64,000 nucleotides of DNA from Candidatus Krumholzibacteriota bacterium (lineage in GTDB: Bacteria > Krumholzibacteriota > Krumholzibacteriia > JAJRXK01), in contig CAVXTH010000009.1 in the NCBI GenBank assembly GCA_963764625.1, forward strand, positions 96,001 through 160,000, read 5' to 3'. Positions 35,562 through 51,025 of this stretch are shown here, in pieces. The position numbers and the translations under genes were made by a program. Under the pieces are notes generated by a model. It was not told the DNA's origin. It was given only the letters and a program-made list of their open reading frames with translations, and did no database searches. The first letter of the stretch is position 1; the number at the start of each line of letters is the position of its first letter.

Positions 35562-36120
35562 AAATCTGGTTTGGTCTCTGGTCCGGGTTTGCTGAGGTCG
35601 AGAATTCCGTACTGGACGAGGCCGTTTCATCCGACCCGCACAACAGAGGGGGCAAGAAGATCTTAAAATTGGCGTGCTGTCTCTCGCGAGACGCTGTTGT
35701 CCGCCGCAGCCGATCGGGACCAGGCCGCTTAGTGGAGCCAAGTAAAGCAATTCGTGGGCCGACAGCTAGGATTATCTTGAGCCAGGGTCCAGTCAGATCA
35801 AGATTGGGACTATCTCTTCGGGGCGAAGTCTGAGGTGGGTGCGATGCGCGGCTTGATTCCCCGGGGTCTCTGCACGGTCTGGATCGCGGGGAGCTTCACG
35901 CAGACGCGGAAGATGGCGCTCCCGAAATAAGCCGGGTCCCGAGTCCGCTCGAAGACGGACCGAAGTCTCAGCGCTGTTTTCTTTCTCCTCGAGATTCCGC
36001 GGAACCCAACCCTTCACAATACGTACTCGATAGATCCGTCTTGCATCGGGCATGGGGTCCGGTATCCTTCAATACCGCCAACTCGTTGTCGCTTCAGAAC
36101 ATCAATCGAAGAGGAAAGTC

Positions 36121-39100
36121 ATGAGATCGTTCGCGTGTGTCGTCCTGGCGCTCGTACTTTTGAGTGCCCTTGCTTCGGCGCCGGCGCTGGCCGCTTCCGA
36201 GTACATCCAGACCTCCGATATCCATGGAGACATGATCGTCTTCACCGCCGAGTCGGATCTCTGGCTCACCTCCACCAGTGGCGGAATACCCCAACGACTC
36301 ACCACCCACGAGGGAGCGGAGTACTTTCCTGCCTTCTCGCCCGACGGCAAGCTGATCGCCTTCACCGGTTCCTACGACGGGAATAACGACGTCTTCGTGA
36401 TGCCGGCAACTGGAGGGGAACCGCACCGCCTGACCTGGCACCCCGGTAGCGATCAGGTGGTGGGTTGGTGGCCGGACGGCTCCAAGGTGATTTTCCGCAG
36501 CAGTCGCAACGATCCCAATCACACCTATCACCTCTTCACCGTCGACCTGGTGGGCTCAGATCCAGTGGAACTGCCCCTGGGCTGGGCTTCGCGGATCGAC
36601 GTCGATCCCAAGAGCGGCATGTACGCCTTTGACCGTACCACGCGGGAGTGGGCCACCTGGAAGCGCTATCGAGGCGGAACCGCTTCGAACCTGTGGGTGG
36701 GCGACCCCACTAAGGCCAACTACAAGCAGATCACCAGCTTCGCCGGGATGGATCTGTTCCCCATGTGGCACGATGGCCGCATCTATTTCCTGAGCGACCA
36801 GGGAGGTACGGCCAACATCTGGTCGATCAAACCCGATGGCACCGACCGCAAGCGTCACACCGACTTCGGGAAGTGGGACGCGCGCTGGCCTTCCATGGGT
36901 CCCGACGGCCGCATCGTGTTCACCCTAGCCGCCGACCTCGAGATTTTCGACCCCGCCAGCGGGAAGACGCACAAGGTCGAGATCAACCTACCCAGCGACC
37001 GCAAGTTGACCCGAACCCGCTATCCCGATGCCGAAAAGAACATGACTGAATTCGCGCTCGCTCCCGACGGGGAGAGAGTAGCCGTGGCGACTCGCGGTGA
37101 GATCTTCTCGGTTCCGGTGAAGGACGGGGTGACGCTGCCCATCACCCGGGGCACCGGATCCCGCGAACGCGGGGTGAGCTACGGGCCCAAGGGAGAGAAG
37201 ATCCTCTACATCACCGACGAACCCCATGAGGACGAGTTCCGTCTGGCCGACGCCTGGGGCCGTGGCGAGCCCACGGTTGTGAAGAAAGCAGGCACCACGA
37301 CCTGGCATCGCCAGCCGACCATGTCGCCCGACGGCAAGTGGATCGCCTGGGCCGACAACACCTTCACTCTCTTCGTGAAACCGGTCGACGGCGGCACGGT
37401 CCAGAAAGTAGATCACAGCGACCAGTTCGAGATCGGAAGCTATCGCTGGAGCCCCGACGGTCGCTGGCTGGCCTACGACAAGCTGCTACCCAACGAATAC
37501 ACTTCGGTGTACATCTACGACACCCAGGAAAAGAAGACCCACGAGATCACCGGGCCCAACACGAACGACTACGATGCGACCTGGGACCCGGACGGCCGCT
37601 ACCTCTATTTCATCAGCGACCGGGCCACCAACCCTCTGATCGGCGAGAACGACTACATGGACGTCGAGTTCAAGAACGACCAGCTCTACATGGTTCTTTT
37701 GCGCAAGGACGTGAAGGATCCCATGGCGAACCTGAACGGTCTGCCACCCGACAAGGACAAGGGCGACAAGGACAAGAAGGATGACAAGGGGAAGAAGGAC
37801 GAGAAGAAGGACAAGAGACAAGGACAAGATTGAGCCGGTGAAGATCGACTTCGACGGTCTGGCCGAACGCTTCGTCGAGCTTCCCGTCGATCGCGGCCAC
37901 TACTACGGTTTGGCGGCCACCAGCAAGAACCTGTTCTTCGTCTCCCGTCCGAAGAAGGGGATGGCCGAGAGCGGCGGCTTCTTCAGCGATCCCAAACCCA
38001 CGGACATCCTGATGTCCTTCAGTCTGAAGGACAAGGAGGCCGATACTTTCGTCGACGGCATCATGGACTACGACCTGAACGCAAAGGCGGACAAGATCGC
38101 CTTCATGAAACGGAAGGGTGACCTCTACGTGGTCGACACCGGCTCGGCTCCCAAGGATCTTAGCAAGGCCAAGGTTGACCTGTCCGGACTCGTGGTCGAG
38201 CTGGATCCGCGTGAGGAATGGAGCCAGATGTACTACGAGGCGTGGCGTCAAATGCGCGATTTCTATTGGGATCGCAACATGGGTGGGGTCGATTGGGAGG
38301 CCAAACGCGATCAGTACGCGAGCCTGTTGCCTCGGCTCTCGAGCCGCGGCGATCTGAGCGATCTCTTGGGTCAGCTCTACGGCGAGATGGCGACTTCCCA
38401 TACCTACGTATGGGGTGGTGATTCCGGGGTGAAACTACCCCATGTCTCGACCGGCATGCTGGGCGCTGATCTGGTACGTGAGGGTAAGGCCTACAAGGTG
38501 GCGCGCATCTATCGTGGCGATGACGCGGATCGCGTGCGCTCGCCGCTCCTGGAGCCGGGCGTGAACGTGAAGGAAGGCGACTACATTCTGGCCGTCAATC
38601 GCAAACCCTTCGACGGCAAGCATTCTTTCTACTCTTCGATGGAAGAGCTGGCCGGCAAGGGAGTCCAGTTGACCGTCAACGACAAGCCCACGATGGACGG
38701 GGCGCGCGAAGTCACCGTGGTACCGATGGGCAGCGAGAGCGACCTGCGCTATTCGGACTGGGTGAGGCGTAATCGCGAGTACGTGGCCAAGAAAACCGAC
38801 GGCAAGATCGGCTACATTCATATTCCCGACATGGGCACCGACGGCATGATCGAGTTCAACACCTGGTTCTATCCGCAGTTGGACAAGGAGGGAATGGTGG
38901 TCGACGTGCGCTGGAACGGAGGCGGCTCGGTTTCCCAGATCATCCTCGACCGTCTGCGCCGCCACGTGCTGAGCTTCGATCGCAATTGGGGTGGGGGCAT
39001 CTGGACCTATCCCGACAAGGTCCTCAACGGACCTTTCGTGGTGCTCACCAACGAATTCGCCGGCTCCGACGGGGACATCTTCCCTCAGGCGGTGCAACTG

Positions 39101-39433
39101 GAGAAGTTGGCGCCGGTCATCGGCGAGCGCTCGTGGGGCGGGGTGATCGGGATGAATAGCCTTCGCCCGCTGGTCGACGGGGGCATGGTGACGATGTCCC
39201 AGACCGCCTGGTGGGATCCGCGTGACGGCTGGAGCCTGGAAAACCGCGGGGTGATTCCCGACATCGAGCTACAGAATCTGCCCCAGGATCTGGCCCGTGG
39301 TGTCGATGCTCAGCTGGATCGGGGAATTGAGGAAGTGATGAAGCTGCACGACGAGCATCCGCCGGTGAAGCCGCAGTTCGGGCCCATTCCCGGCCGCGAC
39401 CGCGAGGATTTCCAGAAGGAGCTCACGAATTAG
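36121..39433 (+). CDS. Tricorn-like S41 peptidase (PD40 propellers + PDZ + catalytic domain); frameshift near 37815
   Basis: Signal peptide; PAFSPDGK repeats; WKRYRGG; IGYIHIPDM, DVRWNGGG, AGSDGD and IGERSWGG. The break lies in a GACAAG repeat. Confidence 0.92.
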
Positions 39434-39553: not shown

Positions 39554-39567
39554 TTGACGAGTATCAA
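39554..39567. promoter_or_regulatory. FNR/CRP-family-like box
   Basis: TTGAC-GAGT-ATCAA matches 9 of 10 positions of TTGAT-N4-ATCAA and ends 40 bp before the tlpA-like ATG. Confidence 0.5.
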
Positions 39568-39607
39568 CCGAGCCAACCAGAACATTTCAATCCGGAGGTA
39601 CATCCTC

Positions 39608-40129
39608 ATGAGGATTGCGGCCCTCGCCAGCCTCTTGATGTGTCTCCCCCTGACCCTCTGGCCCGGAATGGCCAGCGCGGGCGGCGTCAGCTCCCAGGCG
39701 GCTTCGGCTGCCGCGCACGACGCCGCTCCTTCCTTTCAGTTGCCAGCGGTCCAAGGGACCGTCGACTCGGACTCTCTGCGCGGCCACCTCGTGTTGGTCG
39801 ATTTCTGGGCGTCGTGGTGCGGGCCCTGCGCGCAGTCGTTCCCATGGCTCGGCTCCGTGCAGAAGCGCTACGAGGCCAAAGGCCTGAGAGTCGTCGCGAT
39901 CAACCTGGACAAGAAACGTGAGGCGGCCGAGCGATTCCTGCTCAAGCACGAAGCGCCGTTCACCGTGGCGTTTGACCCGGAGGGAAAGACGGCCGAGGCG
40001 TTTCAGGTGCAGAGCATGCCGTCGAGCTATCTCATCGGCCCCGACGGAACGATCCTCTACACGAAACACGGCTTCCGAGCAGACCACACCCAAGAGATCG
40101 AATCCAAGATCGAGGAGGCCTGCCGATGA
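39608..40129 (+). CDS. TlpA-family thiol-disulfide reductase (secreted)
   Basis: Signal peptide, LVDFWASWCGPC, cis-Pro motif MPSSYLIG, GGAGG RBS. Confidence 0.93.
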   Translation: MRIAALASLLMCLPLTLWPGMASAGGVSSQAASAAAHDAAPSFQLPAVQGTVDSDSLRGHLVLVDFWASWCGPCAQSFPWLGSVQKRYEAKGLRVVAINLDKKREAAERFLLKHEAPFTVAFDPEGKTAEAFQVQSMPSSYLIGPDGTILYTKHGFRADHTQEIESKIEEACR

Positions 40130-40367
40130 GGACGCGAGGTCTCCTGGGGTTCATCGGTCTGGTTCTTCTGGTGATTCTCGCGGGCGCGATCAGCGGATGC
40201 GCCTCCATGCAAGCTACAAGCCCTGGGATCGTGACCTGTTGGCGGAGCCGCAGATGAGTTTCATCGCCGAGCCCATGCTGAGCGTACTCGACGAGCACAT
40301 CTACTTCAGCAAAGAGGGATCGTTAGGCGGTCAGGATGCATCCGGCGGAGGCTGCGGATGCAACTGA
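40126..40367 (+). CDS. DUF4266-type small lipoprotein; frameshift near 40210
   Basis: MRTRGLLGFIGLVLLVILAGAISGC (lipobox) joins KPWDRDLLA...HIYFSKEGSLGG...GGGCGCN*. The ATG overlaps the tlpA stop. Confidence 0.85.
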
Positions 40368-41620
40368 GTCCACCCAAGAAGCCCACCTCGGTTCGCGGCA
40401 AGCTGGGGATGGCCGCGTGCGTGCTTCTGGCTTCGAGTCCCGCCACCGCGCGGGCGGAAGCACCGCTTCGCTGGCAGCTCGACATGTCGGGCCTGCTCTA
40501 TGGCGAACAGAGCCGTACCCGCGTCGTCGAACCGACGGCACGCATCACCCGGCTGTTTCCCGATGGGCAGACCCTGTCGGCCACTATCGCGCTGGATGCC
40601 ATCACCGGAGCCTCGCCGACCGGCGGCATCGCTTCCACCAAGATCATCACTACCACCACTCCCTCGGGGCGGCTGCAAACCCAGCAGGTCGGGACCATTC
40701 CGACCAGCAACTTCCACGACATCCGGGGTGCGCTCGATCTGAACTGGACGAAGCCCACTGGAGGGTGGCTCACCACCTCGCTGGGAACCCATCTCTCAAG
40801 TGAGAAGGACTACCGCTCGCTGGGAGCGCACGGCAAGCTCTCGGTGGCGTTCATGCATCGCCTGACCACCCTGTCCCTGGGCGGCGGCTATAACTCGGAT
40901 GGCATCACTCCGGTGGGGGGCACGCGCGCGCCCCTGAGTGACGGTACCGTGATCATCGACAACGGGACCCAGGCCAAGCACGTCACCACCGTGCTCGTGG
41001 GACTTTCGCGCGTTCTCACGCGCCGCTGGATGGTGGCTGCGAATTTCTCGCAGACAAAAGAACGGGGCTATCTCACCGATCCCTACAAGATCGTGAGCAC
41101 GGTCGATCCTCAAACCGGGGATCAGGTGGGCCAGCTCACCGAACATCGTCCGTCGACGCGCGATCGCAAAGACGTTCTCGTGAGTTCGGTCTATCACTTC
41201 GAGAGCGATCTTCTCTATCTCGCGGACCGGGTCTACTGGGATGACTGGGGCATCCATTCCCACATGCTCGACTTCAGGTACCGGCATCGCTTGGAGCATT
41301 TGGCCTTCGTGGAACCCCACGTCAGATTCTATTTCCAGGGACGCGCCAATTTCTTCCGCTACTCACTACTCGATGGGGAGGCGCCTCCTGAGTACGTTTC
41401 GGCCGATAATCGCCTGGGCGCGCTGCGGACCCTCACGCTGGGCCTCACCTACGGCTTCCACCTGCAGAACACTCCCGGCACCTGGAGCGTACGCGGTGAG
41501 TACATGCGGCAGTGGGGAGATGGCTTTCCCACCGACGCGATCGGGAAGCAGCAGAACATCGATCTGGCACCGCCGGTCAACATCGGCTCTCTGGCCGCCA
41601 CCTACACCCTGCAGTTCTGA
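40358..41620 (+). CDS. DUF3570-type outer-membrane beta-barrel with a flavinylation motif
   Basis: DAITGAS motif (40595-40615), SSEKDYRS, YWDDWGIHSH, C-terminal Phe; sits between DUF4266 and ApbE. Confidence 0.85.
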   Translation: MQLSPPKKPTSVRGKLGMAACVLLASSPATARAEAPLRWQLDMSGLLYGEQSRTRVVEPTARITRLFPDGQTLSATIALDAITGASPTGGIASTKIITTTTPSGRLQTQQVGTIPTSNFHDIRGALDLNWTKPTGGWLTTSLGTHLSSEKDYRSLGAHGKLSVAFMHRLTTLSLGGGYNSDGITPVGGTRAPLSDGTVIIDNGTQAKHVTTVLVGLSRVLTRRWMVAANFSQTKERGYLTDPYKIVSTVDPQTGDQVGQLTEHRPSTRDRKDVLVSSVYHFESDLLYLADRVYWDDWGIHSHMLDFRYRHRLEHLAFVEPHVRFYFQGRANFFRYSLLDGEAPPEYVSADNRLGALRTLTLGLTYGFHLQNTPGTWSVRGEYMRQWGDGFPTDAIGKQQNIDLAPPVNIGSLAATYTLQF

Positions 41621-41629
41621 GGAGGCCGT

Positions 41630-42553
41630 GTGCACCGAGTCGGAGATTCTTCTGAGCTGTCCGAGTCGATCCCGGTGGCGATCGAAAGGGCGGAGGATTG
41701 TCAGGTGGGACGGTTCGAGGCCATGGCCAGTCCGTGCAGCGTTCTGGTGAACACGGAAGACGCGAGTGAGGCCGATCGACTCAGCCGCGTCGCGGCGCGA
41801 GAGGCGCTGCGCATCGAGCGCAGCTTCAGCCGCTACCGCAGCGACAACATCGTGCACCGGATCAATCATTCCGACGGGCGCCGGGTAGCGGTGGACGAGG
41901 AGACAGCGAAGCTTCTGGACTACGCGGCCACCTGCTACGAGATTTCCGATGGACTGTTCGACATCAGCTCGGGCGTTCTGCGTCGGGTCTGGCGCTTCGA
42001 CGGCGGCACTCGTGTGCCTTCACGGCGCGCGGTGAGTGAGCTACTCGAGTTGGTGGGCTGGGAGAAAGTGGACTATGACGGCGCCGGGATCAGCCTGCCG
42101 GCGGGCATGCAGATCGACTTCGGCGGCATCGGAAAGGAGTACGCGGTCGATCGCGCGGCCGCTCTGCTCGCAGAAAAGACCGAACGCCCCTTCCTCGTGA
42201 ACTTCGGCGGCGACCTGTACGCGAGCGGCGAGCGTCCCGGGGGACGTCCGTGGGGGATCGGGATCGACGACCCCTCCCGGACCGGTGAAGCGGTGCTCTA
42301 CCGGGTCGAGCTCCGCGGTGGGGGGCTGGCCACCAGTGGGGACGCCCGCCGTTTCGTCCGCTACAAGGGCCGTCGGTTGGGTCACATTCTCGATCCGCGG
42401 ACCGGATGGCCGGTGGAAGGCGCGCCTCAGGCCGTCACCGTGATCGCGTCGACCTGCCTGGAAGCGGGCACGCTCTCCACCCTGGCCTACCTGCAGGGGA
42501 GTGGTGCGAAGGAGTTCCTGCAGGCGCAGGGAGTTCACTTTCAACTGACGTGA
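41630..42553 (+). CDS. apbE: FAD:protein FMN transferase
   Basis: FEAMAS, FSRYRSD, GLFDIS, IDFGGIGKEYAVD, NFGGD, LATSGD and HILDPRTGWP. Confidence 0.95.
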   Translation: MHRVGDSSELSESIPVAIERAEDCQVGRFEAMASPCSVLVNTEDASEADRLSRVAAREALRIERSFSRYRSDNIVHRINHSDGRRVAVDEETAKLLDYAATCYEISDGLFDISSGVLRRVWRFDGGTRVPSRRAVSELLELVGWEKVDYDGAGISLPAGMQIDFGGIGKEYAVDRAAALLAEKTERPFLVNFGGDLYASGERPGGRPWGIGIDDPSRTGEAVLYRVELRGGGLATSGDARRFVRYKGRRLGHILDPRTGWPVEGAPQAVTVIASTCLEAGTLSTLAYLQGSGAKEFLQAQGVHFQLT

Positions 42554-42688
42554 TGGGCGGCAGGTGGCAGGGTTTTGCGGCTTGCCTACCCTATAGAGAA
42601 CAGCTCGACCACCGAAGAAGCTGCCAGCCGAAATTGCTGCGCGCGCGGTCTCGGACTCCCCCTTGCGGTCGATCGGAACGGAAAGCCA

Positions 42689-43258
42689 ATGAAGATCGCA
42701 ACCTGGCGCAGGTTCTCAGTCGTCCTCGTCTTGGGATGCGCCGGGTTTGCGTCCGCTTGCAAAGACGACTCCCCGACCGCCAATCACGACGGCCCGGTCA
42801 TGGCGGCCGACTTCTCCCTCGAAGACCTCAATGACAGCTCGCAAACCTACCAGCAGGCAATTTCTCCCCGCGATTATCTTGGCAGCGTCTCCGCCTGGTA
42901 CTTCGGGCACTCGACCTGAGGCTACTGCCGAAGCCAGTTTGGCTTGATGGACAGCTTGCAGACCGAGATTCAGTCGCTGGGGTGGGCCTCAGAGGTGCAC
43001 TTCTTGGGGATTAATGACAAGGATCAAAGCGCGGGGAATTACCTCATCCCCTTCGTCGCCCATCTTCCGTGGCTGCAGGACGATACCACGCAGCACGTAT
43101 GGGATTCATGGAATGCTATCTGGCGCGACATCATCATCCTGGACCAGAACAATACGCCGGTGGCCCGCTTCAACGTCACCACCTACAACCTCACCAACCC
43201 CGCCAACTTCGATTCCCTGAAGACCCTGCTCAGATCCTTCGCGCAACCCAGCCCTTGA
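42689..43258 (+). CDS. Predicted selenoprotein: thioredoxin/redoxin-fold lipoprotein with a U-x-x-C motif (Sec77 at TGA 42917-42919)
   Basis: ORFs 42575-42919 and 42944-43258 are in the same frame. Read-through gives ...AWYFGHST-U-GYCRSQF...HFLGIN...LPWLQD...WRDIIILD (189 aa). Lipobox ASAC; SECIS-like hairpin directly downstream. Confidence 0.82.
42925..42954 (+). promoter_or_regulatory. Bacterial SECIS-like hairpin
   Basis: Upper stem AAGCCA-GTT-TGGCTT and lower stem CTGCC/GG(A)CAG. The apical-loop G sits after a 17-nt spacer from the UGA. Confidence 0.65.
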
Positions 43259-43282: not shown

Positions 43283-45436
43283 TCAACCCTTCTTCGTGAG
43301 GGCTTCACGAACTCTCTCGGCGGTCATGGGAAGCTGGTGGAGCCTGACTCCGATTGCATCGAAGATCGCGTTGCCAATGACCGCTCCCACGCAGATGATG
43401 GCTGGTTCGCCTCCGCCCTGAGGACTCAACTGATCGTTCTTCACCAGGACGGTTTCGATCTCGGGCAGCGTACTGAATCTCGGCAGCTCATAGGTGTCGA
43501 AATTCTCATCCAGAATCTGTCCGCCCTTGAATCGAATCGCCTCCGAAAGCGCATAGCCCAGCCCCATGGTGAGGCAGCCCTCCATCTGGATCGTCGCTCC
43601 CTCGGGATTGACGACGATTCCCATGTCCTGGGCGCACACCAGCCGCCGAACCCGGATTCTCCCGTTCGTCTTGTCGACCTCGATCTCACCGATCACCGCG
43701 ACATAGGTGCCGGCGTCGATTCCGCAGGCAATGCCCCAACCGCGGCCGCTCGGAGAGCCGGCCTCTTTCCAACCGAAGCGCTCTGCCGCGGTCTTCAGCA
43801 CCTGAAGCATGCGGGGGTCGCTGGTGTTGTTCAGGCGGAACTTCAGAGGATCGGCTTTGATTTGCGCCGCCATGATGTCGATTTGTGATTCGCGGGCGAA
43901 GGTGTTGGTGTTGGCTCCCGGAGCGCGCCATGGACCCACCGCGAAGGGGTGCGCCTTGGCGGTTGCCCCCATCCATCCGCCATGCACTTTCACCAGGTTG
44001 TTGGGTACGTCGTAGTACTGCTCGGTGCCTCGGGAGCCCGCGAAGTAGACAGTGTAGTCCCACAGACAGATCTTTCCCGAAGCATCGACACCCGATCGGA
44101 CGTCGACTACTGCCGCCGAATGGAATGTGTCATAGAAGAATTCCTCGGCGCGATCCCAAGCTACCTGAACCGGCAAACCGGTAATTACGGCCAAACGGGC
44201 GGCCTCTTCGGCCTGGAGTCCCGCAGTCTTCCCTCCGAAACCCCCACCCACGAAGGGAGTGATCACCCGCACTTTGTCCTGCGGCATGCCGACGATCTTC
44301 GCGATTCTCTCCTGGGTGGGGAAAGGCGTCTGCGTCGAGGCCCAAACCGTCAGCTTACCCTTCTCGAGCGTGGCCAACGCGGTGTGCGTTTCCATCGGGG
44401 CGTGGGCGCAATAGCCGTCCAGGTACCGCTCTTGAATGATGGATTTGGCGGCCCGCTCTCCGGCTGTGAGATCACCTCTGGCATCGCGTTTCTCCGGAGC
44501 TGCCGCGACCTCGACCAGATGGTCGAAGATCGTCGTGTCGTCGACCTGCGGCTGAGGGCGCTCGTATTCCACCTTGATGCTCTGCAGAGCCTTGGTCGCT
44601 TCTTCAGGATCCTGATGGAGCACCGCAATCAGGTCCTTCTCCTTCACGACACGTGCACCGGCCCACTTCTCAGCTGCCGAAGTGTCGACGCTCTTTCGGA
44701 TGGCATCGTGCGCGGGAGGACGAAGAACTCTCGCGTAGACCATACCCGGCACGCGCACATCCCCGGCGTAGAGCGCCTTGCCCGTCACCTTGTCCCACGC
44801 ATCCCTGCGAAGACTGTCCTTCCCCATCACCTTGAAGTCGTCCACCGAGGTGAGGGCCACCGAGCGATCCGTCTCGCGAAAGATCTGACGGCCTTTGGCC
44901 AGCTCCCCGAATCCTACTTTCTTACGCCGGTTGTCCCTGAGGAAGACGATGCCGTCCTCCACCACCAGCTCGTCCCTTGGCGCCTGAAGGTGTTCGGAGG
45001 CCAGGTCGAGCAGAACCGCGCGCGCCTCGGCCGCGGCCGCGCGGAGAGCCGGGCCGAAGAAGCGTGTACTCATCGAACCGAAAGTCCCCATGTCCCACGG
45101 GCAGAGATCCGTGTCGCCCATGACCATCTCGATGGCCTCCAGCGAGACCCCGAGTTCCTCCGCGGCCATCTGCGCCAAGGAAGTCACCACTCCCTGACCC
45201 ATTTCGATCTTGCCGGTGAATACCGTGACTTTCCCGTTCTCATCGATCCGCAGGTACGCGTTCGGATCACTTGGATACGGTCTGCGCTGCGCCTCGGCAT
45301 AGTCGATCGGCCAGCTGCCCACGGTGAACAGAACGACGATTCCACTCCCGATGAATTTGAGGAAATCGCGCCGCTCGAGCCGCCAACCGCGATCCCAAGC
45401 GCCAGTTTCTGGAGGATTGATTTGATCCTTCTTCAT
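43283..45436 (-). CDS. Molybdopterin hydroxylase large subunit (IorB/xanthine dehydrogenase family) with a Tat-like N-terminus
   Basis: RRDFLK, GKIEMGQG, HAPME, GGGFGGK, WRAPG and GGGEP. Confidence 0.92.
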   Translation of the reverse strand: MKKDQINPPETGAWDRGWRLERRDFLKFIGSGIVVLFTVGSWPIDYAEAQRRPYPSDPNAYLRIDENGKVTVFTGKIEMGQGVVTSLAQMAAEELGVSLEAIEMVMGDTDLCPWDMGTFGSMSTRFFGPALRAAAAEARAVLLDLASEHLQAPRDELVVEDGIVFLRDNRRKKVGFGELAKGRQIFRETDRSVALTSVDDFKVMGKDSLRRDAWDKVTGKALYAGDVRVPGMVYARVLRPPAHDAIRKSVDTSAAEKWAGARVVKEKDLIAVLHQDPEEATKALQSIKVEYERPQPQVDDTTIFDHLVEVAAAPEKRDARGDLTAGERAAKSIIQERYLDGYCAHAPMETHTALATLEKGKLTVWASTQTPFPTQERIAKIVGMPQDKVRVITPFVGGGFGGKTAGLQAEEAARLAVITGLPVQVAWDRAEEFFYDTFHSAAVVDVRSGVDASGKICLWDYTVYFAGSRGTEQYYDVPNNLVKVHGGWMGATAKAHPFAVGPWRAPGANTNTFARESQIDIMAAQIKADPLKFRLNNTSDPRMLQVLKTAAERFGWKEAGSPSGRGWGIACGIDAGTYVAVIGEIEVDKTNGRIRVRRLVCAQDMGIVVNPEGATIQMEGCLTMGLGYALSEAIRFKGGQILDENFDTYELPRFSTLPEIETVLVKNDQLSPQGGGEPAIICVGAVIGNAIFDAIGVRLHQLPMTAERVREALTKKG

Positions 45437-45444
45437 GACAGACC

Positions 45445-45909
45445 TCACATCCCCGAAGAGGTGCTTTCGATTGCCGCGACGATGCGCTTGTGCGCGCCAC
45501 ACCGGCAGAGATTGTCATCCATGCCCCGGATGATTTCCTCACGACTCAGGTGGGGATTCTTCAGCAACAGAGCATAGGCGGTCATGATCATGCCGGGAGT
45601 GCAGAATCCGCACTGCATGGCGTCGTGCTGAATGAACTGTTCTTGGAGGGGGTGGAGCTTGTCTTTCTGCGCCATTCCCTCGATGGTCAGGACTTCCTTG
45701 CCCGTGACCTCTTTCATGGTCAGCTGGCAGGAGCGCACGGCCTCTTGGTCGATGAGGACGGTGCAGGCTCCACAGAGCCCTTCGCCACAGCCGTATTTTG
45801 TTCCGGTGAGGTCGAACTCGGATCGCAAGACCCAGAGGAGCGTCCGATCGCCGTCGATTTGCAGACGCCTGGGCCGACCGTTGAGCGTGAAGTCGATGGT
45901 CTCCTTCAT
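45445..45909 (-). CDS. 2Fe-2S small subunit (IorA/CoxS family)
   Basis: GCGEGLCGACTV, QCGFCTPG and NLCRCG. Confidence 0.95.
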   Translation of the reverse strand: MKETIDFTLNGRPRRLQIDGDRTLLWVLRSEFDLTGTKYGCGEGLCGACTVLIDQEAVRSCQLTMKEVTGKEVLTIEGMAQKDKLHPLQEQFIQHDAMQCGFCTPGMIMTAYALLLKNPHLSREEIIRGMDDNLCRCGAHKRIVAAIESTSSGM

Positions 45910-46807: not shown

Positions 46808-47887
46808 TTGATTCTGACGCTGCCTCTTTTGGTTTCGGTGGCCGCTTGCTCACGGAGCGGTGTGGAGGGGAACGAGGCGGGCGCAAAGGGTAAGGGCAAT
46901 CCCGACCGGGCCGCGGCGGCGGTTCCCGTATCGGTGACCGAAGTGGTGCCCCACGATCTTGCCCGTACGGTAGCAGTGACCGGTCCCGTCGAGCCCATCC
47001 GAACCGTCACCGTGAACGCCCAGACCGCGGGCACCGTGCTCTCGGTGTTGGTGGAGGAAGGCAATCGGGTCCACGGCGGGCAGCTCATGGCGCAGCTCGA
47101 CGCGCGGGAGACCACCGCGCAGTTGGAGCGGGCCCACGCGGTGTTGGCCAACGCGCAGGCGGCCTACGAACGCATGCAGCGATTGCAGAACAGCGACCTG
47201 AGCTCCGACGCCGAAATGGAGTCAGCGCGCTCCGCGTTCGACATCGCCAAAGCTGACGTCCGGCTCTGGAGCACCCGGCTCGCATTCTGCCGCGTCACCG
47301 CTCCAATCTCCGGTATCGTCACCGCTAAACGGGTCGAGAAGGGCGCCGCCGTCTCTTCCACCAGTCCCATGTTCTCCATTGCCGACGATTCCCTGCTCGT
47401 GGTGCGCGTCCGCGTTTCCGAACTGGACGTTGCTCATCTTCACCCGGGACAGTCGGCCACGATTCAGCTCGATGCCTATCCGGGCGTGAAGTTCTCGGGG
47501 TACATCAGGAGGATCTTCCCCAGCGCCGACGCGGCGAGTCGTCTCGTGCCGGTGGAGACGGTATTGGGCAAGTTGCCCCAGGGAGTCATCGCGCGTCCGG
47601 GCTACCTGGCGCGCGTGGAGTTCGCCCTGAACACCCGCAGCGGAGTGTTGGCCGTTCCCGCCCCGGCCATCGGAGTCACCGACAGCACTTCCTACGTCTA
47701 CGTGGTGCAAGCCGACACTCTGAGCCGCCGAGTGGTCAAAACGGGTCTTACCACCTCGGGTTGGATCGAGATCAGCTCGGGGCTGAAGCCTGGCGAGACG
47801 GTGGTCAGCTCTGGGCACGTGAATTTGCGACCGGGAGTGAAAGTGAGAATCAGCGGGTCAACCCCGCCGGCCGAGAGCGCACGATGA
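46808..47887 (+). CDS. RND efflux membrane fusion protein
   Basis: Lipobox VAAC, VEEGNRV..GQL and VTAPISGIV. Confidence 0.92.
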   Translation: MILTLPLLVSVAACSRSGVEGNEAGAKGKGNPDRAAAAVPVSVTEVVPHDLARTVAVTGPVEPIRTVTVNAQTAGTVLSVLVEEGNRVHGGQLMAQLDARETTAQLERAHAVLANAQAAYERMQRLQNSDLSSDAEMESARSAFDIAKADVRLWSTRLAFCRVTAPISGIVTAKRVEKGAAVSSTSPMFSIADDSLLVVRVRVSELDVAHLHPGQSATIQLDAYPGVKFSGYIRRIFPSADAASRLVPVETVLGKLPQGVIARPGYLARVEFALNTRSGVLAVPAPAIGVTDSTSYVYVVQADTLSRRVVKTGLTTSGWIEISSGLKPGETVVSSGHVNLRPGVKVRISGSTPPAESAR

Positions 47888-50800
47888 GCGAGTCCAAAAA
47901 ACAGTGGGGCCTTTCGGGTCTCTCGATTCGGCGGCCGATTGGCGTCTTGGCCTGCGCCTCGGTGGTGGTGGTGCTGGGACTGTTCTTCGTCCGGCAGCTT
48001 CCCCTCGATCTGTTGCCACAGATCATCTATCCGCAGATCCGCGTGCGCGTGACTTACCCCGGGGTCGCTCCGGAAGTGATGGAAGAACAGGTCACCAAGG
48101 TTCTGGAGACCAGTCTGGCCACTACCGAGGACCTGGTCGCACTCGAAAGCGAGACCAGCGAAGGTGATTGCGACATCGACCTTCACTTCAACTACGGAAC
48201 GGATATCAACTTCGCACTTCAAGACGCCTCCAAGAACCTCGACCGCGCGCGCAGTCGTCTGCCGATCGAGGCCGATCCGCCGGTCATTCGCAAACTCGAC
48301 CCCTCACAAATTCCGGTCTTCGAGGTGGGCTTCAGCTCCGCTACCCGCGATCTGATCGATCTGCGCAATTGGGTGGAGCTGCGCCTGCAGCCCCAGCTCC
48401 TGACGATCGAAGGGGTGGCGGCGGTGGACGTGGCCGGTGGTCTGGTGCGCGAAATCCACGTGACGCTCGACCAAGAGAGACTTCGATCCTACGGACTCAC
48501 CATCTCCGACGTCCTTCAGCGCATTCGCTCCGAGAACCAGGATATCGCGGTGGGCAATGTCACTTCGCCCAACTTCGAAATCGTGGGCAAGACGGCGGGG
48601 AAGTTCAAGAGCGTCGATGACATCCGCAAGGTCCTACTCACGGTGCCCGGCACCTCGCAGAGAATCCCGCTCTCGGAAGTCGCGAAAGTCACCGATACCC
48701 ACGAAGAGCAGAGGTTGTGGGCGCGGCTGGATGGCGTGCCGGCGGTGAAACTCTCGGTGAGCAAGCAGCCCGATGCGAACACGGTTACCGTCGCCCAGGG
48801 TATTGCCGAGACGCTTGAGAGAGCTCGCGAGTTCCCGCTTCATTCCGGACGACATCCACTACGAAGTCATCTCCGACCAGTCCTTCTTCATTCGCAATGC
48901 GGTGGACGGAGTTCGCAACGCCGCGATCGTTGGAGCCGGTTTGGCCATGTGCATCGTGTTGCTGTTCTTGGGCAGCATTCGCAGGACATTCATCATCGGC
49001 CTGTCCATCCCGTTGGCCGTGTTGGCGACCTTCGCCATGATGGGGATGGGAAAGCTCACGCTGAACATCATGAGTCTTGGCGGTCTCGCACTGGGCATCG
49101 GACTTCTCATCGACAACTCGATCGTGATGCTGGAGAACATCTTCCGGCATCGGCAACTGGGAGTGATCGATCCGGTCGAATCGGCCCAGCGCGGGTCGGC
49201 CGAGGTTGCCTCCGCCGTGACCGCGTCGACTCTGACCAACCTCGCAGCGGTCGTGCCCTTCCTTCTCATCACCGGCCTGGCCGCCCTCATTTTCCGCGAA
49301 CTGATTCTGACCATCTCGTTCGCGATCGTGGCTTCTCTGGCCACCGCCTTGACTCTGGTGCCGATGCTCTCGGCCCAACTCGCCAAGGTTCAGCGGAGCA
49401 GCCACCTCGATCGCAATCCGGTCGTCATTCTCTTCAACCGCGGACTGGTGGGCTTCACCTCACTCTACCGGCACATGGCCGCCGGGGCGGTGCGCTTCCG
49501 CTGGTTGGTGCTCTTCATCGCATTCGCGGGGTTCTTCGGCTCGCTCGTTCTCATGCGAGGTCTGGGTAACGAGTTCCTCCCCGCGGTCGACGACGGAAAC
49601 GTGGGTGTCTACGTGCACATGCCTCCCGGGACCTCTCCCGAGCGAACCAATGAGATCGCACTCAAACTGGAAGATCTGGTGCACGGCATGCCCTACGTAG
49701 AGCACGTCTTCACCACGGCGGGGGGGTATTTGTACGGAGGCGCCACTCTCGCTCGCGGCGGCCGCGGTTCGATGTCGATTCAGCTCACACCGGCCAGCCA
49801 ACGGCGCAGCATGCCTGCCTCCCGTTGGGTCGACGAGCTGCGAGCCAAGATCAACCAGCTGGGCATTCCGGGGGCCCAGATCTTCGTGCGTCCGCCGCGG
49901 ATTCGCGGCTTGCGGACGAACCGGGTCGGCTCGGACGTGGCGGTCTCGGTGCAGGGAGACGATCTGGCGAAGCTGCAGTCCCTCGGCTACGAGATGCAGC
50001 GGCGCATGAAGGGGATTCTAGGCCTTTCAGGAGTCGAACTGTCGACCGAGGAAGCCAGCCCCCAGCTCTCCATCGAGATCGATCGTCAACGCGCCGCCGA
50101 TCTCGGACTGGACGTGGCCCAGGTGGGCCAGACTGTCCGGACGGCTCTGGACGGCACCATCGTCACCCGGTACACCGACAAGAACAACGAGTACGACATC
50201 CGCGTACGGCTTCCTCGCGACTCGTTCACCAGCCCCGAGGATCTGGGAGCCATCGCGCTCTTTCCCGGCGATGAAGCGCCCATCTACCTGCGCGACGTCG
50301 CCGACGTCCGTTTGGGAACCGGGCCTACCACCATTTTGCGGGTGAACCAGAACCGCCAGCTGCGCGTGACCGGCGATGTCGACGACCAGGTGGCGAGCGT
50401 GGGTCAGGTCACCGCCGCGGTCCGCAGCGCTCTGGCCGACCTGCCGTTGCCGCAGGGTTACTCGTTGATCTACGGAGGAGAGGAACAGGCGCTGCGCGAG
50501 AACCAGCGCAACCTGCGCATCGTAATTCTCTTGGCCGTCTTTCTCGTCTTCGTCGTGATGGCGGTCCAGTACGAGAGCGTCAGCGACCCCCTGACCATCC
50601 TGGTCTCCATTCCCTTGGCTTTGATCGGGGTGGGGGCTCTGCTCTGGATCACCGGGACCCCCCTCAGCGCCCCGGTTCTTTTGGGAGTCATTCTCTTGGC
50701 CGGAATCGTGGTGAACAACGCGATCCTTTTGGTGCAGTACGTGGAGATCGCCCGCCGCGAGAAGGGAATGCCGGTGGAGGAAGCAGTGGTGGAAGCGGGA

Positions 50801-51025
50801 GCGGTCCGTCTGCGGCCGATTCTGATGACCACGACCACGACCGTCTTCGGTATGTTGCCTCTGGCACTGGGACTGGGGGAGGGATCGGAGCTGATGCAAC
50901 CTCTCGCCATCGCGGTCATTGGAGGATTGACGGTGTCCACCCTACTCACCCTGATCGTCGTGCCCTGCGCCTATCTCATCGTGCACCAGGTGGCGGATGG
51001 CTTGCGACGGGTGGTCATCGGATGA
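47884..51025 (+). CDS. RND (AcrB-family) transporter; frameshift near 48815
   Basis: SIRRPI, GLLIDNSIVMLENI, GIVVNNAIL and RLRPILMTT; the two ORFs overlap at a GAGAGAG tract. Confidence 0.92.

What the first reader, a model, noticed from the sequence alone, without database searches (positions are those of the whole stretch)
42689..43258. Hidden selenoprotein: exported thioredoxin-fold lipoprotein with a U-G-Y-C active site
Seen: two adjacent 'hypothetical' ORFs are in one frame, separated by a single TGA (42917-42919). Read-through gives a 189-aa protein with lipobox ASA-C24, a redoxin-like start (ADFSLEDLN), then WYFGHST-[TGA]-GYC, followed by thioredoxin-like strands (HFLGIN, LPWLQD, RDIIILD). 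Known: UGA at the first position of a CxxC motif is the classic signature of selenocysteine in thioredoxin-fold proteins. Inference: this is an extracytoplasmic Sec redox lipoprotein that standard gene callers would split in two. The assembly errors visible in this window are indels, so a stop at exactly the catalytic Cys position is unlikely to be noise.
Basis: partly seen in the sequence, partly recalled or inferred. Interest (0 to 1): 0.9.

Follow-up and report, generated by a model that had tools for sequence, protein, structure and literature searches.

The report
Known-family selenocysteine thioredoxin-fold lipoprotein gene
The apparent stop codon inside this gene is almost certainly read as selenocysteine in a lipid-anchored, exported thioredoxin-like redox protein, but NCBI curators have already catalogued this protein family as a selenoprotein, so the call is correct rather than new.

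Summary
Positions 42689-43258 (+) are one reading frame interrupted only by TGA at 42917-42919. Read through, the 189-aa protein scores 198.5 bits (cut-off 100) on NCBIfam NF053656, 'TUGYCR motif thioredoxin fold (seleno)protein'.

The genome has tRNA-Sec, SelA, SelB and SelD. In its phylum, 28 of 208 genomes carry the family, and all 28 have TGA at the same column. A 5-bp hairpin with loop AGUUY starts 11 nt after the UGA. It covaries (0 of 500 shuffles reach the score) and constrains synonymous sites. Cys forms exist.

The AlphaFold model (pLDDT 89) is closest to DsbE/ResA/TlpA-type extracytoplasmic reductases, with Sec at the first CxxC position. A lipobox Cys is present in 28 of 28.

New detail: an invariant Arg replaces the cis-Pro and is lost only in domains that lost the redox motif.

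This scan already met the family on other DNA.

The parts
42689..43258 (+). Whole gene for the 189-aa TUGYCR-family selenoprotein lipoprotein, including the terminal TGA stop at 43256-43258
   Evidence: NCBIfam NF053656 scores 198.5 bits against a cut-off of 100, residues 40-182 matching profile positions 2-144 of 146. The same match is found in the genome search.
42689..42757 (+). Lipoprotein signal peptide, residues 1-23: a positively charged start, a hydrophobic core, then A-S-A before Cys24
   Evidence: The sequence shows it directly. Equivalent signal peptides ending in a lipobox Cys occur in 28 of 28 homologues. No dedicated signal-peptide predictor was available, so this is pattern-based.
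42758..42760 (+). Codon of Cys24, the predicted lipidated first residue of the mature protein. An acidic, low-confidence linker follows, to about residue 38.
   Evidence: C24 is an invariant column of alignment A3. pLDDT is 55-73 over residues 1-40.
42917..42919 (+). UGA codon read as selenocysteine (U77), at the first position of the U-G-Y-C redox motif
   Evidence: TGA sits at this column in 28 of 28 homologues. The column aligns with the first Cys of the neighbouring TlpA-like protein's WCGPC motif (hhalign probability 93.8%).
42926..42928 (+). Codon of Cys80, the predicted resolving partner of U77
   Evidence: C80 is an invariant column of A3. TGC or TGT is present in 28 of 28.
42931..42945 (+). 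SECIS-like hairpin. The 5' arm is 42931-42935, the loop AGUUU is 42936-42940, and the 3' arm is 42941-42945. There are 11 nt between the UGA and the stem and 16 nt between the UGA and the loop. The hairpin overlaps the codons for S-Q-F-G.
   Evidence: Searches cover covariation, synonymous-site bias, and coordinates and energies. One search shows the same hairpin in Sec loci of a second phylum.
43124..43126 (+). Codon of Arg146, an invariant Arg directly before strand 147-151, where thioredoxin-fold reductases have a cis-Pro
   Evidence: R146 is an invariant column of A3. R is kept in 62 of 67 CxxC/WxxC domains and in 0 of 12 degenerate domains.

Best explanation
This is one gene for a selenocysteine-containing, lipid-anchored, extracytoplasmic thioredoxin-fold oxidoreductase of the curated family NF053656.

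**Decoding (shown computationally).** SelB carrying Sec-tRNA(Sec) reads UGA 42917-42919. It is directed by a small mRNA hairpin that begins 11 nt downstream and overlaps the S-Q-F-G codons.

**Export and anchoring (inferred from sequence patterns).** The precursor leaves the cytoplasm through a lipoprotein signal peptide. It is lipidated at Cys24 and held on the membrane by an acidic flexible linker.

**Catalysis (inferred from fold and motif position).** U77 sits at the N-cap of helix 78-97, the nucleophile position of CxxC reductases of the DsbE/ResA/TlpA type. It attacks an oxidised substrate. The adduct is resolved by Cys80 to give a selenenylsulfide. That bond is then re-reduced, most plausibly by a DsbD/CcdA-type membrane electron shuttle, which the genome encodes. 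The invariant Arg146 at the cis-Pro position is part of the active site.

**Unknown.** The physiological substrate is not known.
For: **Family**
- NF053656 scores 198.5 bits against a cut-off of 100.
- The T-U-G-Y-C-R motif is present exactly.

**Sec machinery in the genome**
- tRNA-Sec scores 73.3 bits, and ARAGORN calls it with anticodon tca.
- SelA scores 378.8 bits.
- SelB scores 355.5 bits, and its wing domain 37.8 bits.
- SelD scores 358.1 bits.

**Conservation of the UGA**
- 28 of 208 genomes of the phylum match above the cut-off, and all 28 have one TGA at the same column.
- In a second phylum, 21 of 401 sampled genomes match. Of the 23 matches, 21 have a TGA.

**SECIS hairpin**
- 90.5% of 168 cells are paired.
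- The covariation score is 0.363 against a shuffled mean of 0.151, and 0 of 500 shuffles reach it. Slid controls reach at most 0.097.
- RNAalifold finds the same stem.
- Ser at +5 is AGC in 21 of 21 cases, against 19% of 235 Ser codons elsewhere in the same genes. The +4 codon ends in T in 18 of 28.
- One Sec locus of the second phylum keeps pairing through a U-A change that turns QFG into QFD.
- The hairpin meets the published bSECIS constraints: loop of 3-9 nt, G then U in the loop, 16-37 nt spacing (PMC13188914, passages read).

**Sec/Cys pairs**
- Cys forms are P0002-P0005, three Planctomycetota MAG loci with TGT, and 65 CxxC domains among the best 150 representatives.

**Fold**
- The model has pLDDT 89.1 and pTM 0.81.
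- Foldseek's best hits are ResA 2h1b (E 4.9e-9) and DsbE 3gl3 (target TM 0.79).
- VIA-align gives Z 16.9, rmsd 2.1 over 135 residues to 3gl3, Z 16.0 to ResA, and Z 15.1 to the pneumococcal lipoprotein thioredoxin Etrx2.
- The U column aligns with the first Cys of WCGPC.

**Lipobox**
- The lipobox Cys is present in 28 of 28.

**Electron input**
- A DsbD_TM homologue is in the genome, at 64.3 bits.
Against: - **No experiment:** Nothing here shows selenium in the protein.
- **No strain-identical reads:** No read or contig from the same strain was laid over the TGA.
- **Trp at the Sec column:** P0006 and P0067 have Trp there. This may be gene calling under a TGA=Trp code, but I could not check it.
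- **Reductase role is by analogy only:**
  - The defining cis-Pro of TlpA/ResA-type proteins is absent and replaced by Arg146.
  - The protein passes no Pfam or NCBIfam model of those families.
  - A profile search of PDB sequences is not significant (best E 0.18).
- **No functional hint from context:** The ApbE/DUF3570 neighbours are kept only within the genus, in 2 of 27 other loci. The 20 flanking ORFs scanned in other loci are unrelated to each other in function.
- **Hairpin energy:** The window's 71-nt fold is not unusually stable (z -0.79), and the bare 15-nt hairpin is only -5.4 kcal/mol. The hairpin rests on conservation and covariation, not on energy.
- **DsbD homologue is generic:** It is present in 10 of 14 control genomes.
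Confidence: 0.85

Rival explanations
1. It is the same selenoprotein, but it is not a disulfide reductase. Instead it is an Arg-dependent extracytoplasmic peroxidase-like or small-oxidant-reducing enzyme. Sec77 reacts with a peroxide or similar oxidant, Arg146 activates it as the conserved Arg does in peroxiredoxins, and Cys80 resolves the selenenic acid.
For: - Arg146 is invariant in A3 and lies directly before strand 147-151, where reductases have cis-Pro.
- Arg is kept in 62 of 67 CxxC/WxxC domains and in 0 of 12 domains that lost the redox motif. Structural residues W70, Q130 and W141 stay in both groups.
- The only Pfam hint is AhpC-TSA, at E 0.017.
- Peroxiredoxins and Bcp proteins match the model at Z 13-14.5, close behind the reductases.
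- That the catalytic Arg of peroxiredoxins occupies the cis-Pro position is recalled knowledge, not tested here.
Against: - The peroxiredoxin PxxxTxxC motif is absent. The sequence before U77 is W-Y-F-G-H-S-T.
- The AhpC-TSA score of 15.5 bits is below the cut-off of 26.
- hhalign against the genome's own Bcp-type peroxiredoxin gives probability 2%.
- The best structural matches are DsbE and ResA, not Prx.
- The 12 degenerate domains come from only 10 proteins, so the Arg correlation rests on few independent events.
Confidence: 0.25
2. It is a metal-handling (copper) thioredoxin-fold lipoprotein of the Sco or TlpA-Sco-partner kind, and the U-x-x-C pair binds or reduces a metal site.
For: - Sco1-type chaperones match the model at Z 14.2-14.5.
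Against: - None of the 20 flanking ORFs scanned in other loci hit a copper-handling family. The flanks were only about 1.5 kb.
- The RND pump 3.5 kb downstream in the window scores best on multidrug-type models.
- Sco proteins use CxxxC plus a distal His. Here the spacing is UxxC.
- H74 is not conserved outside the phylum set: 23 of 67 active domains have it.
Confidence: 0.07
3. The TGA is a true stop or a sequencing error. Under this reading there are two separate small genes, a pseudogene, or a gene whose true codon is TGC or TGG.
For: - Table 11 splits the frame into two ORFs.
- The window shows two genes that look frameshifted, so assembly errors are possible.
- No strain-identical contig was laid over the site.
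Against: - TGA sits at the same column in 28 of 28 and in 21 of 23 independent genomes of two phyla.
- Conservation is equally strong on both sides.
- A covarying hairpin is placed at SECIS distance.
- The complete Sec machinery is present.
- The C-terminal half alone would lack the active site and the signal peptide.
Confidence: 0.02

Closest known systems
NCBIfam NF053656, redoxin_TUGYCR: 'TUGYCR motif thioredoxin fold (seleno)protein' (domain model, release 20.0)
   Same: - The protein scores 198.5 bits against a cut-off of 100 over profile positions 2-144 of 146.
- It carries the exact T-U-G-Y-C-R motif.
- It is a member.
   Different: - Nothing distinguishes it from the family.
- The family itself has no tested function.
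- I found no paper that names it: searches for 'TUGYCR' and 'NF053656' returned 0 papers.
- The main text of the 2026 selenoproteome review does not list the accession. Its supplements could not be seen.
DsbE/CcmG, ResA and TlpA-type extracytoplasmic thiol-disulfide oxidoreductases (PDB 3gl3, 2f9s/2h1b, 1jfu, 1kng)
   Same: - These are the best structural matches: Z 16.9 and 16.0, Foldseek E 5e-9.
- They are membrane-tethered and act outside the cytoplasm.
- The redox motif sits at the N-cap of helix 1, and the Sec column equals their first Cys.
   Different: - This protein has Sec instead of Cys.
- It has no cis-Pro before strand 3. An invariant Arg-Asp stands there instead.
- Sequence identity is only 11-20%.
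- It is below threshold on all their sequence models.
- It has a lipid anchor rather than a transmembrane helix.
Etrx1/Etrx2, surface-exposed lipoprotein thioredoxins of Streptococcus pneumoniae (PDB 4hqz, 4evm)
   Same: - They are lipoprotein-anchored thioredoxin-fold domains outside the cytoplasm.
- They match the model at Z 15.1 and 14.7.
   Different: - They are Cys proteins of Gram-positive bacteria.
- Their known partner, a methionine sulfoxide reductase, is recalled knowledge.
- No such partner is linked to this gene.
Peroxiredoxins (AhpC/TSA, Bcp/PrxQ)
   Same: - The fold is the same, at Z 13-14.5.
- A conserved Arg precedes strand 3.
- There is a weak AhpC-TSA hit.
   Different: - There is no PxxxTxxC motif.
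- Sec occupies the first, not the second, position of the CxxC-equivalent.
- hhalign probability against the genome's own Bcp is 2%.
Other UxxC selenoproteins of the thioredoxin fold listed in PMC13188914 (thiol-disulfide isomerase-like cd02966, redoxin family PF08534, DsbA-like, DsbG-like)
   Same: - They have UxxC at the catalytic position.
- They have Cys homologues.
- They have a SECIS hairpin just downstream of the UGA.

Membership tests
NCBIfam NF053656 (TUGYCR thioredoxin-fold selenoprotein) | HMM score above the curated cut-off of 100 bits | tested here: met
   The protein scores 198.5 bits. The six-frame genome search gives 191.2 bits with one TGA inside the match.
NCBIfam NF053656 (TUGYCR thioredoxin-fold selenoprotein) | T-U-G-Y-C-R motif, with Sec or Cys at the U position | tested here: met
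   Residues 76-81 read T-U-G-Y-C-R.
NCBIfam NF053656 (TUGYCR thioredoxin-fold selenoprotein) | Thioredoxin fold | tested here: met
   The AlphaFold2 model has pLDDT 89.1. VIA-align gives Z 16.9 to DsbE 3gl3. This is a prediction, not a solved structure.
Bacterial selenoprotein (Sec decoding) | In-frame UGA conserved among homologues, with Cys-containing homologues at the same column | tested here: met
   TGA is present in 28 of 28 and in 21 of 23 matches. Cys forms appear.
Bacterial selenoprotein (Sec decoding) | Genome encodes tRNA-Sec, SelA, SelB and SelD | tested here: met
   All four are above the family cut-offs.
Bacterial selenoprotein (Sec decoding) | bSECIS hairpin: loop of 3-9 nt with G in its first two positions followed by G or U, upper stem of 4-16 bp, 16-37 nt from UGA to loop, MFE at most -7.5 kcal/mol (PMC13188914) | tested here: met
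   - The loop is AGUUU (5 nt).
- The stem is 5 bp, or 6 if the loop's A-U closes.
- There are 16 nt from the UGA to the loop.
- MFE is -13.1 kcal/mol for the 44 nt starting at the UGA. The bare 15-nt hairpin is only -5.4.
- Covariation is shown.
Bacterial selenoprotein (Sec decoding) | Selenium actually incorporated at the UGA | not testable with these tools
   This needs 75Se labelling or mass spectrometry.
TlpA/ResA/DsbE-like extracytoplasmic thiol-disulfide oxidoreductases | Thioredoxin fold with N-terminal hairpin and central insert; redox motif at the N-cap of helix 1 | tested here: met
   These are the top structural matches. The U column aligns with the first Cys of WCGPC.
TlpA/ResA/DsbE-like extracytoplasmic thiol-disulfide oxidoreductases | Conserved cis-Pro directly before strand 3 | tested here: not met
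   There is no Pro between P127 and P156. The residue before strand 147-151 is the invariant R146. The position was assigned from the model's strand order, not from a residue-level superposition.
TlpA/ResA/DsbE-like extracytoplasmic thiol-disulfide oxidoreductases | Match above threshold to the families' sequence models | tested here: not met
   Pfam gives only AhpC-TSA at 15.5 bits, below the cut-off of 26. NCBIfam lists no ResA, DsbE or TlpA model at E up to 1.
Peroxiredoxin (PF00578) | Pfam gathering score and the PxxxTxxC active-site motif | tested here: not met
   The score is 15.5 bits against 26. The sequence before U77 is W-Y-F-G-H-S-T.
Peroxiredoxin (PF00578) | Catalytic Arg before strand 3 | tested here: inconclusive
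   R146 is invariant and is lost together with the redox motif. The profile alignment to the genome's own Bcp has probability 2%.
Bacterial lipoprotein | Signal peptide ending in a lipobox with an invariant Cys | tested here: met
   The pattern is seen in the window and in 28 of 28 homologues. No dedicated predictor was run, and lipidation itself is not testable here.

The most novel reading that the evidence does not exclude
The TUGYCR family is not a plain ResA/TlpA-type disulfide reductase. It is a distinct class of exported seleno-enzyme in which an Arg at the cis-Pro position works with Sec77 and Cys80, giving peroxiredoxin-like chemistry on a reductase-like scaffold. It would act on a small oxidant at the cell surface. 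Tandem proteins that pair catalytically dead copies with one live Sec domain (L061, P0013) would mark a substrate-binding or scaffolding role for the dead copies.
Probability: 0.25. Interest if true: 0.5.

Novelty: already known. Interest (0 to 1): 0.22.

Why it matters
- **Annotation fix:** Ordinary gene callers split or truncate this gene. Of the best 150 database representatives of the family, 72 are C-terminal fragments that start just after the UGA.
- **Already catalogued:** The family is in NCBIfam, so the kind is not new.
- **What remains open:** The function is untested. The family is widespread: 1243 representative clusters at E up to 1e-10, and members in 28 of 208 and 21 of 401 genomes of two phyla. 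It is a lipid-anchored selenoprotein outside the cytoplasm with no known substrate.
- **Concrete handles for an experiment:** The Arg-for-cis-Pro replacement, its co-loss with the redox motif, and the SECIS hairpin that shapes the conserved S-Q-F-G peptide.

Tried and rejected
- **Rfam:** There were no matches at gathering score in the window. A permissive local scan gave only two chance-level hits, at E 0.7 and 4. No curated RNA family covers this hairpin.
- **Fold energy:** The 71-nt fold is no more stable than shuffles (z -0.79). I dropped energy as evidence and used covariation instead.
- **Sequencing runs:** All 16 listed runs hold under a quarter of the sampled words, and no RNA holder is listed.
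- **Laying contigs of 4 runs:**
  - Only relatives' contigs, mostly under 95% alike, reach 42917-42919. No strain-identical piece spans it.
  - None of the 40 listed differences falls on the TGA, but 31 further rows were not shown.
  - I treat this as no verdict on the raw reads.
- **Gene context as a clue:**
  - The ApbE match is kept in only 2 of 27 other loci, both of the same genus.
  - Of the 20 flanking ORFs scanned, the hits were aspartate kinase twice, an ATP-grasp ligase, CysNC, a TPP enzyme, and carboxypeptidase-regulatory-like domains twice. There were no copper genes.
  - Flanks were only about 1.5 kb, and many ORFs in this GC-rich DNA may be shadows.
- **Promoter and terminator scan:** It found nothing upstream of the gene beyond chance.
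- **PDB sequence search with the family profile:** The best E was 0.18.
- **hhalign to the genome's own Bcp:** The probability was 2%.
- **Deiodinase lead:** I recalled a resemblance between the F-G-x-x-T-U stretch and the iodothyronine deiodinase active site. No deiodinase appears among the 50 rows of either structure search, and Pfam gave no T4_deiodinase hit at E up to 1. The lead is left open, not excluded.
- **Genome-collection scan:** It used a Cys-containing peptide pattern, so it could only find Cys forms.
- **Literature:**
  - 0 papers for 'TUGYCR'.
  - 0 papers for 'NF053656'.
  - 0 papers for selenoprotein with DUF3570.
  - 0 papers for selenoprotein, thioredoxin-like, lipoprotein and Planctomycetes together.
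  - The 2022 preprint on eight selenoprotein families (passages read) concerns other families.
- **First search of this genome's earlier notes:** It returned nothing.
Full report
**1. The observation**

An ATG at 42689 opens a frame that runs to TGA 43256-43258, broken only by TGA at 42917-42919. Reading TGA as U gives a 189-aa protein with Cys24 after A-S-A, U77 within W-Y-F-G-H-S-T-U-G-Y-C-R, and the quoted downstream motifs. Under table 11 the frame appears as two ORFs, 42575..42919 and 42944..43258.

TGA is an ordinary stop in this genome. The upstream ApbE gene ends in TGA at 42551-42553. This gene also ends in TGA, as do 19 of its 28 homologues.

**2. What it is**

NCBIfam holds a curated domain model named for this motif: NF053656, 'TUGYCR motif thioredoxin fold (seleno)protein'. 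The protein scores 198.5 bits against a cut-off of 100, over profile positions 2-144 of 146. The model matches none of 14 control genomes. Pfam gives only a sub-threshold AhpC-TSA hit, at 15.5 bits against 26.

**3. Sec decoding capacity**

The window is G000:C9:96001-160000, in a 3.57-Mb, 9-contig genome that is 96% complete. The genome encodes all four components:
- tRNA-Sec at 73.3 bits, confirmed by ARAGORN with anticodon tca.
- SelA at 378.8 bits.
- SelB at 355.5 bits, plus its wing domain at 37.8 bits in the same open frame.
- SelD at 358.1 bits, itself with one in-frame TGA.

**4. Conservation of the UGA**

Across the 208 genomes held for the phylum, 54 match the model at E up to 0.001, and 28 of those, G000 included, are above the cut-off. 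All 28 contain exactly one TGA. The 26 weaker matches (20-29 bits) have none and are other redoxins. The 28 fall in three of the nine families of the phylum.

Extracting the loci shows that TGA sits at the same column in 28 of 28, inside W-Y-F-G-H-(A/S)-T-U-x-x-C-x-x-Q-F-G.

In a second phylum, that of a Planctomycetaceae MAG found, 21 of 401 sampled genomes carry the family. Of the 23 matches there, 21 have one TGA and 2 have none.

**5. Sec/Cys pairs and split database entries**

A word-indexed protein search returned 10 hits:
- Four full-length Cys forms, P0002-P0005.
- One full-length protein with Trp at the Sec column, P0006.
- One C-terminal fragment, P0007.
- Three N-terminal fragments that end exactly at …W-Y-F-G-H-S-T, P0008-P0010.
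- P0011, which was not aligned.

An exhaustive profile search found 2384 representative clusters at E up to 0.001, 1243 at E up to 1e-10, and 91 at E up to 1e-30. The best 150 proteins gave 159 domain matches:
- 79 cover the Sec column: 65 CxxC, 2 WxxC, and 12 with neither Cys.
- 80 do not cover it. Of these, 72 are proteins whose match starts within their first three residues just after the Sec column. These are the truncated calls expected for Sec forms.

**6. The SECIS element**

Every one of the 28 loci has a hairpin of the form (A/G)GCC-AGUUY-GGC(U/C), starting 11 nt after the UGA.

Covariation evidence:
- On the ungapped 72-column alignment A1, the 6-pair helix is paired in 90.5% of 168 cells.
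- Four of the six pairs show changes on both sides.
- The covariation score is 0.363 against a shuffled mean of 0.151 (sd 0.028), and 0 of 500 shuffles reach it. Sliding the partner by 1-3 columns gives at most 0.097.
- The outermost pair is unpaired in 14 of 28, so the core is 5 bp.
- RNAalifold recovers the same 5-bp stem on its own.

Synonymous-site evidence, which matters because the hairpin overlaps conserved codons:
- Ser at +5 is AGC in 21 of 21 cases, although AGC is only 19% of 235 Ser codons elsewhere in the same genes.
- Gln at +6 is CAG in 28 of 28.
- The +4 codon ends in T in 18 of 28, in GC-rich genes.

Evidence from the second phylum:
- Five Sec loci keep 3-5 of the 5 core pairs and the AGUUY loop.
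- One of them, L060, has a U-A pair whose 3' change turns Q-F-G into Q-F-D.
- A sixth locus, L061, reads as fully paired by eye.
- The three Cys loci are close relatives of one another, so they count as roughly one observation. They encode S-Q-F with different codons, have A instead of the loop G, and still keep 3-4 pairable positions through wobble pairs.

In the window the arms are 42931-42935 and 42941-42945, and the loop is 42936-42940. There are 16 nt from the UGA to the loop, and the MFE is -13.1 kcal/mol for the 44 nt starting at the UGA. These values satisfy the published bacterial SECIS constraints (PMC13188914, passages read). From memory, the 11-nt spacing and the G-U in the loop also match what is known for Escherichia coli fdhF and for SelB recognition.

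**7. Export and anchoring**

All 28 homologues have a short, positively charged start, a hydrophobic stretch, and a Cys preceded by small residues. An Asp/Glu-rich segment follows. Cys24 is an invariant column. Residues 1 to about 38 have low confidence in the model, consistent with a signal peptide plus a flexible tether. This reading is pattern-based, because no signal-peptide predictor was available.

**8. Fold and active site**

The AlphaFold2 model built from 33 sequences has mean pLDDT 89.1 and pTM 0.81. Strands are at 67-73, 103-109, 128-130, 147-151 and 157-162, and U77 caps helix 78-97.

Structural matches:
- Foldseek's best hits are ResA (2h1b, E 4.9e-9) and a DsbE (3gl3, target TM 0.79), followed by TlpA and CcmG.
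- The independent all-against-representatives search gives Z 16.9 (rmsd 2.1, 135 residues) to 3gl3.
- It gives Z 16.0 to ResA and Z 15.1 to the pneumococcal lipoprotein thioredoxin Etrx2.
- Below those come Sco1 (14.5), peroxiredoxins (13-14.5) and glutathione peroxidases (about 12).
- A profile comparison with the TlpA-like protein encoded 3 kb upstream aligns the Sec column with the first Cys of its W-C-G-P-C motif (probability 93.8%).

One defining feature of the reductases is missing. The residue before strand 147-151 is an invariant Arg146 followed by Asp147, not a cis-Pro.

Among the wider family, Arg is kept in 62 of 67 domains with CxxC or WxxC and in 0 of 12 domains that lost both redox residues. 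W70, Q130 and W141 persist in both groups. The 12 degenerate domains come from 10 proteins, so the number of independent losses is small. Even so, the pattern points to Arg146 as part of the active site.

This resembles peroxiredoxins, but the Prx motif is absent, and a profile comparison with the genome's own Bcp is not significant (probability 2%).

**9. Context**

Upstream on the same strand lie three genes:
- A ResA/TlpA-like redoxin at 39554-40129, with W-C-G-P-C.
- DUF3570 at 40358-41620.
- ApbE at 41630-42553.

Downstream and convergent lies a molybdopterin-binding subunit of the xanthine dehydrogenase/aldehyde oxidase type, at 43283-45502.

The ApbE adjacency is found in only 2 of 27 other loci. 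Both are of the same genus, and there about 1 kb separates the genes. Flanking ORFs elsewhere differ from locus to locus. The gene therefore behaves as a stand-alone unit, and context says nothing reliable about its substrate. A DsbD-type membrane electron carrier exists in the genome, which makes re-reduction outside the cytoplasm feasible, but the finding is generic.

**10. Mechanism, and how sure**

- **Shown computationally:** One gene; UGA decoded as Sec through a covarying hairpin; family membership; thioredoxin fold with Sec at the nucleophile position.
- **Inferred:** Lipoprotein export; a U77-C80 selenenylsulfide cycle; re-reduction through DsbD/CcdA; Arg146 as a catalytic residue.
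- **Unknown:** The substrate, and whether the enzyme reduces disulfides or a small oxidant.

I put 0.95 on a genuine Sec-containing member of NF053656. I put 0.85 on the whole statement, excluding the direction of chemistry. Within that, about 0.6 goes to a reductase-type role and 0.25 to a peroxidase-like role.

**11. Novelty**

The family is already curated, and the gene is an ordinary member. This scan has met the same family on other DNA several times, with the same verdict.

I found no paper that names the family. The main text of the 2026 review of prokaryotic selenoproteomes does not list its accession. Older categories such as 'thiol-disulfide isomerase-like' or 'redoxin family' UxxC selenoproteins may overlap with it.

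My flanks were short, though.

**12. Limits**

- No strain-identical read or contig was laid over the TGA.
- No RNA run was listed.
- The two Trp-bearing database proteins could not be traced to DNA.

Noticed in passing
window 39554-42553 (+): A same-strand cluster lies upstream of the finding: a ResA/TlpA-like redoxin with W-C-G-P-C, DUF3570, and an ApbE flavin transferase. It looks like an extracytoplasmic redox/flavinylation module. Its adjacency to the selenoprotein gene is kept only within the genus. The 43-aa ORF at 40126-40257, between the redoxin and DUF3570, hit no family.
   Followed up: partly
window 36052-37833 and 37781-39433 (+): A tricorn-like protease appears split into two overlapping ORFs in different frames. 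The first holds PD40 beta-propeller repeats. The second holds Tricorn C1, PDZ and peptidase S41 domains. This is a frameshift, either real or an assembly indel.
   Followed up: no
window 47761-49569 and 48773-51025 (+): An RND efflux permease is split into two overlapping ORFs that match profile positions 2-307 and 307-1008 of 1009. An RND adaptor subunit precedes it at 46808-47887.
   Followed up: no
G000:C1:137574-138506 (locus L011): The genome's selenophosphate synthetase SelD match contains one in-frame TGA. SelD here is probably itself a selenoprotein.
   Followed up: no
L061 (G339:C135), minus strand of the locus: A two-domain lipoprotein. The first TUGYCR-like domain has lost Sec/Cys, the second Cys and the Arg. 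It is fused in frame to a second domain that keeps UGA, Cys and Arg. Database protein P0013 (612 aa) has several tandem degenerate domains.
   Followed up: partly
L054, L055, L056 (Planctomycetaceae and Pirellulaceae MAG records): The Cys forms of the domain lie at the end of open frames of 885-982 aa, so in these organisms the domain belongs to much larger proteins. The N-terminal fragments P0008 and P0009 carry a long acidic region, and P0008 has a precomputed PKD-domain hit.
   Followed up: no
proteins P0006 and P0067: Two database proteins have Trp at the Sec column while keeping Cys80 and Arg146. The Trp could be TGA translated under a TGA=Trp code by the gene caller, or a true TGG. I could not check the DNA.
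   Followed up: no
window 42863-42945: When metagenome contigs were laid on the gene, many short pieces from other organisms aligned only to the roughly 80 nt around the UGA and the hairpin (records 3, 5, 7 and 9-13). This fits unusually strong nucleotide-level conservation of that stretch.
   Followed up: no
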